This document shows, piece after piece, positions 11,499 through 37,201 of a DNA stretch of 64,000 bases. Numbering within the stretch: the stretch's first letter is position 1; the number at the start of each line of letters is the position of its first letter. The notes under the pieces are model-generated. The model made no database searches, had not been told where the DNA came from, and was given only the letters and a program-made list of their open reading frames with translations. The translations under genes were made by a program, and so were the position numbers. The stretch is from the sequence record PZ000613.1; one strand, 5' to 3'. This DNA is from a phage.

Positions 11499-11574
11499 GC
11501 GCTCTTAGCTCAATGGATAGAGCAGTAGCCTTCTAAGCTATTGGTTACAGGTTCGAGTCCTGTAGGGCGCACCA
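11499..11574 (+). tRNA. tRNA-Arg (anticodon TCT), CCA encoded
   Basis: Cloverleaf: acceptor GCGCTCT/AGGGCGC, D-arm AGCTCAATGGATAGAGC, anticodon loop CTTCTAA, T-arm GGTTCGAGTCC, discriminator A plus CCA. Confidence 0.85.
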
Positions 11575-30533: not shown

Positions 30534-30740
30534 ATGAATAAAGAAGAGTTTCAAGAACTTAGATATTTAACTACCGATGCTCAGTTAAAAGCAATGGTAT
30601 TTGGTCGGGCGTGTCATCGATTTGATACTTGTGATGAAGGTGATAAAGAAGTCTGTAAGCGTTATATGGATAAGAAGCACCTTGAATGGGGTAAAGCTTC
30701 TAATGATCTTTATGACTACATGAAGGGTTTAGTAAAATGA
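30534..30740 (+). CDS. Hypothetical protein (68 aa)
   Basis: ATG 1 nt after upstream stop. Confidence 0.5.
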   Translation: MNKEEFQELRYLTTDAQLKAMVFGRACHRFDTCDEGDKEVCKRYMDKKHLEWGKASNDLYDYMKGLVK

Positions 30741-30934
30741 AAAAGTGGATTGTTCGTGTACATGACAACAAGACAGGTGACATAAACTCTGTAGATTTTG
30801 TTAATACTCGAGAGCACGCTCGTCGAATTAAGAAAACTTTTAAGGGGATAGGTCTGTCAGGTAAGATTACAATAGGAAAAGCTATTGTGAATAGCGAAGG
30901 TGCTTTTATGGCAAATAGTAAGGTTTATTACTAA
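30737..30934 (+). CDS. Tandem paralog family B member 1
   Basis: Shares W.VRV...TR..AR..KK...KV.YY pattern with the next two genes; ATGA coupling. Confidence 0.55.
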   Translation: MKKWIVRVHDNKTGDINSVDFVNTREHARRIKKTFKGIGLSGKITIGKAIVNSEGAFMANSKVYY

Positions 30935-31143
30935 TGAGACCAATCACCATGAGACAGTTCTGGTTAGCAAAGATTAAGTGGGCATCAGGTGGTATGACTA
31001 TGACTGCACTACCCACCCGTCAACAAGCTCGAGAGTTTAAAAAGTCTATGTTCAATGTGGACTTAACTAAGAGTATTAGCATACATAAGGCCAGAGAGTA
31101 TTCCTCTGGTCGTGTTTATATCAGCGGAAAGGTACATTACTAA
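30934..31143 (+). CDS. Tandem paralog family B member 2
   Basis: Same motif pattern, taATG coupling. Confidence 0.55.
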   Translation: MRPITMRQFWLAKIKWASGGMTMTALPTRQQAREFKKSMFNVDLTKSISIHKAREYSSGRVYISGKVHY

Positions 31144-31352
31144 TGAAAAAGATGTGGGCTGTTCGTGTTGTTTGGGAAGATGGACACCATCTAGGTAAAG
31201 ATAATATCAAATTATTTGACACCCGTAAAGATGCTCGTATTGCTAAGAAGAAGATGAAAACTTTAATTGGAACAGTTAAAAGTGCTGACATTCATCGCTG
31301 GTACGAAGACCCTAGCTCGGGTTCTTTTATGTCTAAAGTAATTTACTACTGA
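31143..31352 (+). CDS. Tandem paralog family B member 3
   Basis: Same motif pattern, taATG coupling. Confidence 0.55.
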   Translation: MKKMWAVRVVWEDGHHLGKDNIKLFDTRKDARIAKKKMKTLIGTVKSADIHRWYEDPSSGSFMSKVIYY

Positions 31353-31376: not shown

Positions 31377-31385
31377 AAATGTATA
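31377..31385 (+). promoter_or_regulatory. AAATGTATA, one-mismatch copy of the TAATGTATA candidate phage-sigma promoter element
   Basis: About 40 nt upstream of ATG 31425. Confidence 0.35.
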
Positions 31386-31424
31386 TAGAGTACAATAAGA
31401 ATTTGTATTTTACAGGAGAGAGTT

Positions 31425-31754
31425 ATGTTAGATTTGAGTAAAGTGGCCCCGCCCACTGAAGAGATTACAAAATCCAAGGTGATGCAACAGTTTTATCATC
31501 GTGATATGCTTGGTCGCTTTATCAAGAATCGTGATGTTGTTGCTTGGTCTATCGGTAATCAGGGATATCTGTTGAAGGTTCTTCAGGTTACAGGTTCAAC
31601 TGCTAAGCGTGTTAAGGTGTATGACCCTGAAATGGGGCGTTCTAAGTCAGTAGACCCACAGAACTGCATCGTAATTACCCAGCAGGTAATGGATAATATT
31701 GCACGTAACGTTGCTAACTCAGTTGAACTTGATGGAGAAAACCCAAATGCATAA
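31425..31754 (+). CDS. Hypothetical protein (109 aa)
   Basis: SD GGAGAGAG upstream of ATG. Confidence 0.55.
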   Translation: MLDLSKVAPPTEEITKSKVMQQFYHRDMLGRFIKNRDVVAWSIGNQGYLLKVLQVTGSTAKRVKVYDPEMGRSKSVDPQNCIVITQQVMDNIARNVANSVELDGENPNA

Positions 31755-32310
31755 GAATGTTTTTGATTTACCTGAGATTGGTCGTGACAGCTATAGCATG
31801 TTAGACCGGTCCGACCTATCAATCTCTCGCCTTGAAACAATGCAAGGCATGATTAGTGGAAACAGCCTAGAACACATCCTGAGCTGCTTACAAGCTAACA
31901 TGGAACTCTTGCATATCAAAGCTAAAAACTACCACTGGAACGTCTCTGGTGCAGGATTTCAGGGTGTTCATGGTATGTTTGATGAGCTGGAAGATTACGC
32001 ACGACAAGTAGGAGATCGTATTGCTGAACGTATGCGTTACCACTGTGTTAAAGTGGATGCTACAGCAGCTAACTATCTTTCTCATGCTTGGTTCTCAGAG
32101 GGTAATGCTGATCTAGACATGGACGGTATGCTCTCTGATATGTGCATGACCTTGATGTGTATTATTGAGAAGATGGATGAGTTTGATGGCGATTTAGCCA
32201 CTTACCCTGTCGATCAGAGCATGCTTCAAGAAATTAATGAAGGTCTTGGCAAGTATTGCTACTTCGTCAAGAGCAACATGTCCCATTCAAGTGGTGATGT
32301 GTCTTACTAA
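31747..32310 (+). CDS. Dps-like ferritin-fold protein
   Basis: KNYHWNVSGAGFQGVHGMFDELEDY...DRIAERM matches Dps di-iron site helix pattern. Confidence 0.7.
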   Translation: MHKNVFDLPEIGRDSYSMLDRSDLSISRLETMQGMISGNSLEHILSCLQANMELLHIKAKNYHWNVSGAGFQGVHGMFDELEDYARQVGDRIAERMRYHCVKVDATAANYLSHAWFSEGNADLDMDGMLSDMCMTLMCIIEKMDEFDGDLATYPVDQSMLQEINEGLGKYCYFVKSNMSHSSGDVSY

Positions 32311-32370
32311 AACCTCCGCCCTGTCTCCTAACCCGAGGTGGGGCGAACTTATTTATAAGGATATAGATAT

Positions 32371-32559: not shown

Positions 32560-32730
32560 ATGAAGGACGAATACAAAGCTCACACGGTGATTGTTTGTCA
32601 ATGTGTGATGGCATTGGGGGCTACTAAAAAGATAGCTGAGGATTTAGCCAAAGCTCAAGGGTATAAAGATTACATCGTAATCCCTACCACAGAACGCCAC
32701 CTTAAAGAATTTGTTAACGAGGATTGTTAA
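32560..32730 (+). CDS. Small hypothetical protein (56 aa)
   Basis: ATG ORF; stop overlaps thioredoxin start. Confidence 0.4.
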   Translation: MKDEYKAHTVIVCQCVMALGATKKIAEDLAKAQGYKDYIVIPTTERHLKEFVNEDC

Positions 32731-33008: not shown

Positions 33009-33236
33009 ATGAAGATTCTTAAGTCAGGCTCCACTTTGTTATGGGCAATTACTATATCAAACAAAAATCCTGAGTTAGATCAAAAACCGATTGTTTCTTT
33101 TTTCGAAACTAGACAGCGTGCACGAGATCGAGTAAAAGATCTGAGATCTGTAAGAGTCCATATGAACGTATCTATGCACAAATGCATCATCTCTAAAGTA
33201 GGGATTATCACTATTTTACATAAGAAAGAATATTAA
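33009..33236 (+). CDS. Hypothetical protein (75 aa)
   Basis: ATG ORF, co-oriented. Confidence 0.5.
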   Translation: MKILKSGSTLLWAITISNKNPELDQKPIVSFFETRQRARDRVKDLRSVRVHMNVSMHKCIISKVGIITILHKKEY

Positions 33237-36402: not shown

Positions 36403-36720
36403 ATGGCAGACCATGTAGGAAAGAGAGATTATGCACAAGAAAGACGTACCGCAATTGCCCGTGGTGAAACAGGCGTTGGGAGCAAGAGCGGAGATGCTCA
36501 GCGCCACCGTGCACGTCGCATCGTTGAAAAGCGCGATGGAAAAGCTGCTATCAGAGGTAAGGACGTTGGACACAAACGAGCTGTCAAGTCTGGAGGCTCT
36601 AATGCGTCAAGCAACTTACGTGTTGAATCAGTCAGCTCAAACCGTTCAAACGGCGGCAAAAGTGGTGATCGAGCTGGAAAAGCAAACGGAGCTAGGAAGG
36701 GGGCGTTGAGTGGTTCTTGA
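36403..36720 (+). CDS. Hypothetical basic Gly/Ser/Arg-rich protein (105 aa)
   Basis: Strong SD TAAGGAG 6 nt before ATG; alternative frame 36431-36709 lacks SD. Confidence 0.45.
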   Translation: MADHVGKRDYAQERRTAIARGETGVGSKSGDAQRHRARRIVEKRDGKAAIRGKDVGHKRAVKSGGSNASSNLRVESVSSNRSNGGKSGDRAGKANGARKGALSGS

Positions 36721-37201
36721 TGACACCCTATCTTACGATGCGGTCACAGGTAACCTATACTACACAAGATCTCCAAGCAAAGGAGCGATGTGGAACAAAA
36801 GCCATCCCGGAAAGATAGCTGGGTGTAGGATATCGAAAGGTTATATAGGTGTGTATTTCCAAGGAAGACAATGGAGAGCGCACCGACTTATAGCTACACA
36901 CTTTATACCAAACCCTAACAATTATCCAGAAGTCAACCACATTAATGGGGTAAAAGACGATAATCGACTGGAGAATCTTGAATGGGTATCCGCTTCTGAA
37001 AACATACAACATTCCTTTGATATAGGATTGAATAAAGGACATATTCGTGACAATAACGGAATGACCAAGCTATCCTCTGGAGATGTTGTAAAGATCAAAC
37101 AGATGTATGTGAAGGGTTCTAGGGATTTTGGCTCTAGAGGTCTTGGTAAGCTGTTTGGCGTGAGCCATACAGCTATACTCCATGCTTTAAAGGAGCTTTA
37201 A
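36710..37201 (+). CDS. HNH homing endonuclease
   Basis: AHRLIATHF...VNHINGVKDDNRLENLEW HNH motif. Confidence 0.7.
   Translation: MVLDDTLSYDAVTGNLYYTRSPSKGAMWNKSHPGKIAGCRISKGYIGVYFQGRQWRAHRLIATHFIPNPNNYPEVNHINGVKDDNRLENLEWVSASENIQHSFDIGLNKGHIRDNNGMTKLSSGDVVKIKQMYVKGSRDFGSRGLGKLFGVSHTAILHALKEL

What the first reader, a model, noticed from the sequence alone, without database searches (positions are those of the whole stretch)
31747..32310. Phage-encoded Dps-like ferritin
A clear Dps-type ferroxidase helix pattern (HWNV.G..F...H...DE) in a lytic phage is uncommon. It could protect replicating DNA from oxidative damage, sequester iron, or act as a DNA-compacting mimic.
Basis: partly seen in the sequence, partly recalled or inferred. 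Interest (0 to 1): 0.5.

Follow-up and report, generated by a model that had tools for sequence, protein, structure and literature searches.

The report
Phage Dps mini-ferritin, already annotated
The gene is a real Dps-type iron-oxidising mini-ferritin with a complete catalytic site, but it is identical to gp67 of coliphage phiEco32, labelled a Dps family member since 2008, so it is untested rather than new.

Summary
Window 31747-32310 (+) is a 187-aa ORF. It passes the Pfam Ferritin threshold, matches only Dps proteins among solved structures, and folds in AlphaFold2 into a Dps-type four-helix bundle with the short BC helix. A formal alignment with Listeria innocua and E. coli Dps places all five ferroxidase ligands and the adjacent Trp (H63, W64, H75, D79, D90, E94). 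These are invariant in every phage homologue examined, and dN/dS is about 0.03-0.05.

The window is a Kuravirus (phiEco32-like E. coli podophage). The protein is 100% identical to phiEco32 gp67, annotated "member of the Dps family". Homologues occur across the whole prolate C3 podophage lineage. So it is rare among phages overall but already known.

What I add:
- The protein is strongly acidic and lacks a basic tail, so the "DNA-binding" label is unsupported for Kuravirus.
- It is the second gene of the middle-gene region, overlapping a conserved unknown partner, gp68, by 8 nt.
- Many database records mislabel it "integrase".

Most likely it forms a dodecameric cage that oxidises Fe2+ with H2O2 and stores the iron while phage DNA replicates. 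Interest is low to moderate.

The parts
31377..31389 (+). AAATGTATATAGA, a one-mismatch copy of the phage-sigma promoter motif tAATGTATAtA. It lies in the 72-nt gap upstream of gp68 and is the likely first middle promoter driving gp68 and Dps.
   Evidence: Motif search. The sequence is conserved in SU7, where a promoter is annotated at this place, and in phiEco32. The SU10 paper places a promoter upstream of CDS68 and defines CDS25-68 as the middle genes.
31425..31754 (+). gp68 homologue: 109 aa, phrog_10984, function unknown, pI 8.8. Its last 8 nt overlap the Dps start (ATGCATAA).
   Evidence: Homologues lie immediately upstream of the Dps gene in Proteus phage 3H10_20 and Aeromonas phage LAh_6, and hit coordinates place the two genes 50-100 nt apart in Cronobacter GAP52, Proteus P59 and Aeromonas LAh_9. 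In Salmonella 7-11 the gene is in the same module but 1.3 kb away. It is found in 131 phage records with the same host distribution as Dps. dN/dS is about 0.05.
31734..31737 (+). Shine-Dalgarno GGAG, 9 nt before the Dps ATG and inside the end of gp68.
   Evidence: Read from the sequence. A ribosome-binding site is annotated at the same place in SU7.
31747..32310 (+). Dps-family mini-ferritin gene: 187 aa, 21.2 kDa, pI 4.7, 100% identical to phiEco32 gp67 (ABY52868.1).
31747..31878 (+). N-terminal extension, residues 1-44. It is acidic and largely low-confidence in the model. It carries a conserved MH(N/K)NxFDLP peptide and an S-x-x-R-L-(E/D)-x-M motif with invariant R28, in a possible helix at residues 24-37. 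It is absent from the Salmonella, Proteus and Aeromonas phage homologues.
   Evidence: Alignments; model; charge counts. It evolves faster than the core (dN 0.33 against 0.06).
31933..32028 (+). Ferroxidase-centre segment on helices A and B: H63, W64, H75, D79 and, contributed by the partner subunit in solved Dps, D90 and E94.
   Evidence: These residues are invariant in MAFFT alignments with L. innocua and E. coli Dps and with all phage homologues.
32317..32345 (+). 11-bp GC-rich hairpin 7 nt after the Dps stop codon, with a weak T tail. It may be a partial terminator or an RNA-stabilising hairpin closing the gp68-Dps unit.
   Evidence: The stem dominates the centroid fold, but the z-score is only -1.6, so this part is weak.

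Best explanation
The gene encodes a true member of the Dps (DNA protection during starvation) mini-ferritin family. It is made as one of the first middle-class proteins of a lytic phiEco32-like phage, alongside the phage's nucleotide-metabolism and replication enzymes.

By analogy with solved Dps proteins (inferred), twelve subunits form a hollow cage. At each two-fold interface, H63, H75 and D79 of one subunit and D90 and E94 of the other bind two Fe2+ ions. H2O2 oxidises these ions (2 Fe2+ + H2O2 -> ferric oxyhydroxide), and the iron is stored as mineral inside the cage. This removes both Fenton reagents while phage DNA is replicating.

The phage inhibits host sigma-70 transcription, so the host can no longer induce its own OxyR-dependent dps. 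A flavin-dependent ThyX sits in the same module and is a possible H2O2 source (both are inference from general knowledge). The Kuravirus version probably does not bind DNA directly.

Shown here: family membership, fold, an intact catalytic site, purifying selection, and gene context. Shown in the literature: expression. Inferred: dodecamer assembly, ferroxidase chemistry and physiological role.
For: - **Family and fold.** Pfam Ferritin is above threshold. PDB sequence hits are Dps or Dps-like ferritins, apart from one chance match at E 0.61. The AF2 model has helices A 41-65, B 72-98, BC 107-112, C 125-150 and D 154-176, and all listed fold hits are Dps or Dps-like chains at probability 1.0.
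- **Catalytic site.** H63, W64, H75, D79, D90 and E94 align with the published ferroxidase residues of L. innocua and E. coli Dps. They are invariant down to about 29% identity among phage homologues.
- **Selection.** dN/dS is 0.03 for the core against phage SU7; synonymous sites are saturated, so this is approximate.
- **Conservation.** About 98 of 99 Kuravirus-like records carry it, as do the Grimontviridae and Lahexavirus relatives.
- **Context.** It lies next to dCTP deaminase, thioredoxin, ThyX, PhoH and DNA polymerases here, and next to anaerobic ribonucleotide reductase genes in Aeromonas phage LAh_6.
- **Expression.** Six peptides and 35.8% coverage in SU10 preparations. It belongs to the middle class, downstream of the CDS68 promoter.
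- **No direct DNA binding.** pI 4.7, net charge -15, acidic tails.
Against: - No biochemical or genetic test of any phage Dps turned up in the library searched.
- Dodecamer assembly could not be modelled.
- The aspartates that line the iron-entry three-fold pore in canonical Dps (L. innocua D126, D130) align with P154 and S158, or Asn in relatives. Iron uptake may therefore be slower or routed differently, though the alignment is least certain in this region.
- The tight conserved pairing with gp68, the conserved N-terminal peptide, and detection of the Privateer homologue in CsCl-purified virions are not explained by a simple cytoplasmic antioxidant role.
- The ThyX/H2O2 and host shut-off arguments are inference only.
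Confidence: 0.7

Rival explanations
1. It is mainly a DNA-binding and DNA-compacting protein, as the GenBank label "DNA-binding protein" implies. It would coat or condense replicating or packaged phage DNA like E. coli Dps in stationary phase.
For: It carries this family annotation. The short N-terminal tails of the Salmonella 7-11 and Proteus homologues are basic (K+R 3-5 against D+E 1-2). gp68, its conserved neighbour, is mildly basic (pI 8.8) and could bridge to DNA.
Against: The Kuravirus protein has net charge -15. Its 44-residue N-terminal tail has one Lys and seven acidic residues, its C-terminal tail has no basic residue, and E. coli K5, K8, K10 and R18 have no counterparts. From general knowledge, Dps proteins without basic tails, such as L. 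innocua Dps, do not bind DNA.
Confidence: 0.12
2. It is a virion-associated or packaged component. The cage would be recruited to capsids through the N-terminal peptide or gp68, to protect packaged or incoming DNA or to help organise DNA in the very long prolate head.
For: The Privateer Dps homologue was detected by mass spectrometry in particles purified by CsCl step plus equilibrium gradients. SU10 gp67 and gp68 were both detected in PEG-concentrated phage. The lineage restriction coincides with the C3 prolate morphotype.
Against: The SU10 preparation was not CsCl-purified, and DNA polymerase, PhoH and thioredoxin were detected in it too. The SU10 cryo-EM and mass-spectrometry study of purified virions lists gp20-24 as internal ejection proteins and never mentions Dps, although only major bands were analysed. 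The gene is a middle gene in the replication module, not in the structural module. By inference, iron-loaded mini-ferritin cages are dense and could simply co-band with phage in CsCl.
Confidence: 0.08
3. It works as an iron depot or donor rather than a detoxifier. It would buffer iron for phage or host metallo-enzymes needed for dNTP synthesis, such as ribonucleotide reductases and the Fe-S activase NrdG.
For: It is adjacent to anaerobic ribonucleotide reductase genes or small RNR-like ATP-cone proteins in the Aeromonas and Proteus relatives. It always sits in the nucleotide-metabolism module.
Against: I found no RNR gene in this Kuravirus neighbourhood or among the ten large early/middle ORFs I scanned; this was not an exhaustive survey of the window. 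From general knowledge, Dps proteins are chiefly peroxide-consuming iron sinks. This model overlaps largely with the main explanation and cannot be separated from it by sequence.
Confidence: 0.08

Closest known systems
phiEco32 gp67 (phi32_67, ABY52868.1) and its orthologues in Kuravirus and Suseptimavirus, e.g. SU10 CDS67
   Same: 100% amino-acid identity to gp67 over all 187 residues, with the same neighbours: gp68 upstream, then gp66, thioredoxin and ThyX downstream. It was annotated "member of the Dps family" in 2008 and described in SU10 as containing a DPS domain, conserved in all C3 phages and detected by mass spectrometry.
   Different: Nothing in the protein. The window phage has two extra small ORFs nearby (32560-32730 and 33009-33236) that are absent from phiEco32 at this place.
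Cellular Dps mini-ferritins with solved structures: M. smegmatis Dps2 (2z90), B. anthracis Dlp-2 (1jig), B. subtilis MrgA (2chp), L. innocua Dps (1qgh), E. coli Dps (1dps/1f30)
   Same: The same four-helix bundle with a BC helix (TM 0.85-0.92), the same five inter-subunit ferroxidase ligands, and the same neighbouring Trp.
   Different: - Only about 19-27% identity.
- A 44-residue acidic N-terminal extension with its own conserved motifs.
- No Lys-rich tail.
- Unusually rich in Met and Cys (15 Met, 5 Cys, including an invariant D-M-C-M-T-L stretch on helix C), against 4 Met and 0 Cys in E. coli Dps.
- The canonical three-fold pore aspartates are not conserved.
Dps homologues of related prolate podophages: Salmonella 7-11, Proteus Privateer/3H10_20, Cronobacter GAP52, Aeromonas LAh_6
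   Same: 31-45% identity, the same catalytic residues, the same replication and nucleotide module, and usually the same gp68-like gene directly upstream.
   Different: They are shorter (146-156 aa), lack the Kuravirus N-terminal extension, and have short, more basic N-tails. They are followed by a small ATP-cone/RNR-like gene that is not seen here.
Dps-like genes reported in other phages: Lactobacillus plantarum myophages and gut "Gratiaviridae" and other Bacteroides phages
   Same: Phage-borne Dps genes placed near DNA-metabolism genes and proposed, without experiments, to limit oxidative damage during infection.
   Different: They come from unrelated phage lineages and hosts, which are anaerobes or aerotolerant Gram-positives. 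They were not recovered by tblastn with this query at E 1e-5, so they represent separate Dps lineages or acquisitions.

Membership tests
Dps (mini-ferritin) family within the ferritin-like superfamily | Significant profile match to the ferritin/Dps domain | tested here: met
   PF00210 scores 31.1 bits against a gathering score of 24.5. The best NCBIfam partial matches are Dps equivalogs, though below their full-length cut-offs. All but one of the 59 PDB sequence hits are Dps or Dps-like ferritins.
Dps (mini-ferritin) family within the ferritin-like superfamily | Four-helix bundle with a short BC helix in the long crossover loop and no fifth C-terminal E helix of 24-mer ferritins | tested here: met
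   The AF2 model has helices at 41-65, 72-98, 107-112 (BC), 125-150 and 154-176. All listed Foldseek PDB hits are Dps or Dps-like chains; the better ones reach TMt 0.85-0.92 and rmsd 1.2-1.7 A.
Dps (mini-ferritin) family within the ferritin-like superfamily | Inter-subunit ferroxidase centre: His, His, Asp from one subunit and Asp, Glu from the two-fold partner, plus the adjacent Trp | tested here: met
   H63, H75, D79, D90, E94 and W64 align with L. innocua H31, H43, D47, D58, E62, W32 and E. coli H51, H63, D67, D78, E82, W52. They are invariant in all 11 aligned sequences.
Dps (mini-ferritin) family within the ferritin-like superfamily | Assembly into a hollow dodecamer with 23 symmetry | not testable with these tools
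   Only monomer prediction was available. Assembly is inferred from fold and family.
Dps (mini-ferritin) family within the ferritin-like superfamily | Acidic "ferritin-like" three-fold pores for iron entry (L. innocua D121, D126, D130) | tested here: inconclusive
   D121 aligns with D149, but D126 aligns with P154 and D130 with S158 (Asn in relatives). Kuravirus has D156 nearby. The alignment is at about 20% identity in the CD loop, so the register is uncertain.
Dps (mini-ferritin) family within the ferritin-like superfamily | Ferroxidase activity with H2O2 and iron-core formation | not testable with these tools
   This needs biochemistry. No published assay of a phage Dps was found.
DNA-binding subset of Dps (E. 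coli Dps type) | Flexible Lys/Arg-rich N- or C-terminal tail, or a positively charged cage surface | tested here: not met
   The N-tail (44 aa) has K+R 4 and D+E 7 with a single Lys. The C-tail has no basic residue. The whole protein has net charge -15 and pI 4.71.
Tyrosine or serine integrases (the label given to this gene in many Kuravirus records) | Integrase catalytic domain | tested here: not met
   Ferritin is the only Pfam hit up to E = 1. The orthologue labelled "integrase" in NC_070993.1 occupies exactly the Dps ORF, and the IME267 "integrase" carries PF00210.

The most novel reading that the evidence does not exclude
gp68 and Dps form a conserved two-gene module at the head of the middle-gene region of all prolate C3 podophages. 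In Kuravirus the Dps cage has given up direct DNA binding. Instead it carries a conserved N-terminal docking peptide (MHNNxFDLP) and/or uses gp68 as an adaptor that brings the cage to replicating or packaging phage DNA, or into virions, as the Privateer virion proteomics hints. That would make it a targeted or virion-associated mini-ferritin rather than a free cytoplasmic antioxidant.
Probability: 0.1. Interest if true: 0.55.

Novelty: already known. Interest (0 to 1): 0.25.

Why it matters
No phage-encoded Dps appears to have been tested experimentally in the literature searched. This one is a core, strongly conserved and abundantly expressed gene of a phage group now used in therapy and in the BASEL collection. 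Showing that a lytic phage brings its own peroxide and iron defence because it silences the host's would be a tidy, testable piece of phage physiology. The acidic, Met- and Cys-rich cage could also interest nanocage engineers.

There is a practical point as well. The gene is widely mislabelled "integrase", which could wrongly flag strictly lytic therapeutic phages as temperate. As a discovery, though, the Dps identity has been in GenBank since 2008.

Tried and rejected
- **gp68 structure.** The AlphaFold2 model gave mean pLDDT 47, too poor for a fold search, so none was run.
- **gp68 homology.** A profile search of gp68 against PDB sequences gave only spurious hits. Pfam at E up to 10 gave nothing credible for gp68 or its distant homologues.
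- **Defence systems.** PADLOC gave no meaningful hit for Dps or gp68.
- **Primary papers.** The phiEco32 genome and temporal-regulation papers (PMC2587145, PMC3275717) are not held, so the gene-class assignment rests on the SU10 paper's summary. The Privateer supplements hold no spectral counts for Dps.
- **Nearest neighbours.** The nearest metagenomic Dps clusters carry no names, so I could not tell whether the closest non-C3 relatives are viral or cellular.
- **Other reading frames and starts.** The TTG start at 31699 (203 aa) lies inside gp68. The ATG at 31747 has a GGAG 9 nt upstream, and the N-terminal peptide from M1 is conserved at protein level, so the longer ORF was rejected.
- **24-mer ferritin or bacterioferritin.** Rejected, because all structural and sequence neighbours are Dps and the BC helix is present.
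- **Recent capture from the host.** Rejected, because identity to E. coli Dps is only about 19-20%.
- **Beta-clamp-binding motif.** The N-terminal peptide does not fit the consensus as I recall it, so I dropped the idea.

Full report
**1. The observation.**
The window carries a 187-codon ORF from the ATG at 31747 to the TAA at 32308-32310 on the + strand. A GGAG lies 9 nt upstream. The ATG overlaps the last codons of the preceding gene (ATGCATAA). A longer TTG-initiated version starting at 31699 lies inside that upstream gene and is not supported.

**2. Identity.**
- Pfam gives one hit, PF00210 Ferritin-like domain (E 2.6e-7, 31.1 bits, gathering score 24.5).
- PHROGs gives phrog_3636, "DNA binding protein" (E 2.6e-55).
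- NCBIfam gives only partial matches, below cut-off, to Dps equivalogs.
- Against all PDB sequences, the 59 hits up to E = 1 are Dps or Dps-like ferritins apart from one chance match at E 0.61. The best are M. smegmatis Dps2, B. subtilis MrgA and B. anthracis Dlp-2, at E about 3e-9 to 1e-8.
- An AlphaFold2 model built from 14 homologues (mean pLDDT 79.8, with 81-97 over most of the core) has helices at 41-65, 72-98, 107-112, 125-150 and 154-176. This is the Dps four-helix bundle with its diagnostic short BC helix. There is also a low-confidence extra helix at 24-37.
- All listed Foldseek PDB hits are Dps or Dps-like chains at probability 1.0. The better matches reach target TM 0.85-0.92 and rmsd 1.2-1.7 A over about 140 residues.

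**3.
I wrote the L. innocua and E. coli Dps sequences from memory. I then confirmed them residue for residue against PDB 1qgh_A and 1f30_A. In MAFFT alignments, H63, W64, H75, D79, D90 and E94 fall in the same columns as L. innocua H31, W32, H43, D47, D58, E62 and as E. coli H51, W52, H63, D67, D78, E82. These columns are invariant across all phage homologues included, down to about 29% identity. The numbering of the published ferroxidase ligands is from established knowledge of these two proteins. The ferroxidase site is therefore intact and the refutation condition is not met.

Against phage SU7 (84% amino-acid identity) dN/dS is 0.045 overall and 0.03 for the core. Synonymous sites are saturated, so the value is approximate, but purifying selection is clear.

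**4. Where it comes from, and whether it is known.**
The surrounding 2 kb matches 99 phage records, all phiEco32-like E. coli or Shigella podophages (Gordonclarkvirinae, mostly Kuravirus) at up to 96-98% identity. The protein is 100% identical to phiEco32 gp67 (ABY52868.1), whose 2008 GenBank record reads "DNA-binding protein; member of the Dps family".

The SU10 paper (PMC4281155) describes CDS67 as containing a DPS domain and as one of the few middle genes shared by all five C3 phages then sequenced. It also reports detection by mass spectrometry with 6 peptides and 35.8% coverage. The Privateer paper (PMC7881722) notes a Dps-family protein detected with CsCl-purified virions and says its function is unverified. 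Other phage Dps genes have been noted in Lactobacillus myophages and in gut Bacteroides phages.

So the identification is already in the record. What is missing is any experiment: none turned up in four literature searches.

**5. Distribution.**
A tblastn search finds the protein in 137 of 50,697 phage records (0.27%). By first word of the organism name these are 93 Escherichia, 3 Shigella, 11 Aeromonas, 8 Proteus, 7 Salmonella, 6 Cronobacter, 2 Streptomyces, 2 Synechococcus and 5 unnamed or other records. It is therefore rare among phages but a core gene of the prolate (C3) podophage lineage.

An exhaustive phmmer scan of 1.84 billion cluster representatives gives 618 hits at E below 1e-3 but only 13 below 1e-10. 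Identity to host E. coli Dps is only about 19-20%. This is an old, diverged phage clade and not a recent capture from the host.

**6. Anatomy beyond the family assignment.**
(a) *Charge.* The protein has pI 4.71 and net charge -15. The 44-residue N-terminal extension has one Lys, three Arg and seven acidic residues. The C-terminal tail has no basic residue. E. coli K5, K8, K10 and R18 have no counterparts. From established knowledge, DNA binding by Dps depends on such basic tails, and tail-less Dps such as the L. innocua protein do not bind DNA. The "DNA-binding" label is therefore an inherited family name and is unsupported for Kuravirus. The shorter homologues of 7-11 and Proteus phages have small basic N-tails and might differ.

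(b) *N-terminal extension.* It is lineage-specific and evolves faster than the core (dN 0.33 against 0.06). Even so, it keeps two motifs in homologues down to about 50% identity: MH(N/K)NxFDLP at the extreme N-terminus, and S-x-x-R-L-(E/D)-x-M with invariant R28. I cannot explain these.

(c) *Met and Cys content.* The protein has 15 Met and 5 Cys, including an invariant D-M-C-M-T-L stretch on helix C. E. coli Dps has 4 Met and no Cys.

(d) *Pore residues.* The aspartates lining the iron-entry pore in L. innocua (D126, D130, from memory of that literature) align with P154 and S158, or Asn in relatives. The alignment is weakest here, so I rate this inconclusive.

**7. Context.**
The gene sits in the nucleotide-metabolism and replication block: primase/helicase, polymerase exonuclease domain, dCTP deaminase, three small paralogues, gp68, Dps, gp66, thioredoxin, ThyX, ligase-like gene, PhoH and DNA polymerase. 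The module is similar in Salmonella 7-11, Proteus 3H10_20 and Aeromonas LAh_6. In LAh_6, anaerobic ribonucleotide reductase genes are close by.

In the 72-nt gap upstream of gp68 lies AAATGTATATAGA (31377-31389). This is a one-mismatch copy of the phage-sigma promoter motif tAATGTATAtA. It is conserved in phiEco32 and in SU7, where a promoter is annotated at this place. The SU10 paper places a promoter upstream of CDS68 and defines CDS25-68 as the middle genes. gp68 and Dps are thus the first two middle genes. An 11-bp GC-rich hairpin follows the Dps stop at 32317-32345, but its T tail is weak and its fold z-score is only -1.6.

**8. The gp68 partner.**
gp68 (31425-31754, 109 aa, phrog_10984, pI 8.8) overlaps the Dps start by 8 nt. 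Homologues at 31-37% identity sit directly upstream of the Dps gene in Proteus 3H10_20 and Aeromonas LAh_6. From hit coordinates, the two genes are 50-100 nt apart in Cronobacter GAP52, Proteus P59 and Aeromonas LAh_9. In Salmonella 7-11 the gene is 1.3 kb away in the same module. In a few E. coli phages about 490 nt separate the two genes, and in ManiMatter_Bas94 an HNH endonuclease is annotated in that region.

gp68 occurs in 131 phage records with the same host distribution as Dps, and it is absent from the Streptomyces and Synechococcus phages that carry a Dps. It was also detected in SU10 proteomics. Shared ancestry confounds the co-occurrence, but adjacency retained at this level of divergence suggests a functional pair.

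Its function stayed opaque. There was no Pfam, PDB or PADLOC signal, and the AF2 model was unusable at pLDDT 47.

**9. Mechanism.**
The best-supported reading is a canonical Dps cage that uses H2O2 to oxidise Fe2+ at twelve inter-subunit di-iron sites and stores the ferric mineral. This suppresses Fenton chemistry while phage DNA is being made.

Two inferences explain why a lytic phage would carry one. First, phiEco32-type phages inhibit host sigma-70 transcription (summarised). From general knowledge, the host's OxyR/sigma-S-dependent dps therefore cannot be induced during infection. Second, the flavin-dependent ThyX in the same module has a known oxidase side reaction that yields H2O2 (general knowledge, not tested here).

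The rival readings are a DNA compactor, a virion component and an iron donor. Each is scored separately in this report. The virion idea rests on the Privateer CsCl data. It is weakened by the SU10 virion study, which lists gp20-24 as the internal proteins and does not mention Dps. It is also weakened by the non-CsCl SU10 proteomics, which picked up several replication enzymes as well.

**10. Verdict.**
The DNA-mimic idea is not supported. Novelty is "already known", with identical protein and annotation since 2008. The residual interest lies in the untested function, the conserved gp68-Dps pair, the odd acidic N-terminal extension, and the widespread "integrase" mislabel. Interest is 0.25.

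Noticed in passing
window 31747-32310; L006 401-964 (NC_070993.1): The Dps orthologue is labelled "integrase" in many Kuravirus GenBank and RefSeq records, for example YP_010674514.1 of IMEP8, IME267, ES17 and EcoN5. It has no integrase domain. This propagated misannotation could wrongly flag lytic therapy phages as temperate.
   Followed up: yes
window 30737-31352 and 33009-33236: Three tandem paralogues of a 65-69-aa protein (phrog_4939, unknown function, each ending in Y or YY) lie just upstream of gp68. A fourth, diverged copy lies between thioredoxin and ThyX, and phiEco32 lacks it at that position.
   Followed up: partly
window 32560-32730: A 56-aa ORF (phrog_19504, unknown function) lies between gp66 and thioredoxin and is absent from phiEco32 at this place. 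It is one of the small indels that distinguish this phage from its relatives.
   Followed up: no
window 36358, 42773 (+); 42701, 52143 (-): There are four exact copies of TAATGTATA, the core of the phage-sigma (gp36) promoter motif, on the strands expected for middle (+) and late (-) transcription. Two face each other at about 42.7 kb, at the switch between divergent gene blocks. The total count of matches at one mismatch or fewer is no higher than chance, so only position supports them.
   Followed up: partly
window 18683-23326: A cluster encodes a phiEco32-type COOH-NH2 ligase, an amidoligase and a glutamine amidotransferase-domain protein. It looks like a peptide or amino-group ligation system of unknown target in the early region.
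   Followed up: no
window 11499-11574: A single tRNA-Arg (anticodon TCT) gene.
   Followed up: no
window 36710-37201; also between gp68 and Dps in some relatives (e.g. ManiMatter_Bas94): An HNH homing-endonuclease gene lies in the replication module. In a few related E. coli phages about 490 nt separate gp68 from Dps, and an HNH endonuclease is annotated there in Bas94, breaking the otherwise overlapping pair.
   Followed up: partly
L004 4398-4694; L005 4429-4701; L002 4411-4710: In the Proteus, Aeromonas and Salmonella relatives the Dps gene is followed by a roughly 90-100-aa gene. It is annotated as an RNR, ATP-cone or Zn-ribbon regulator in the first two and as hypothetical in 7-11. I did not check whether the three are homologous. 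No such gene follows Dps in this window.
   Followed up: no
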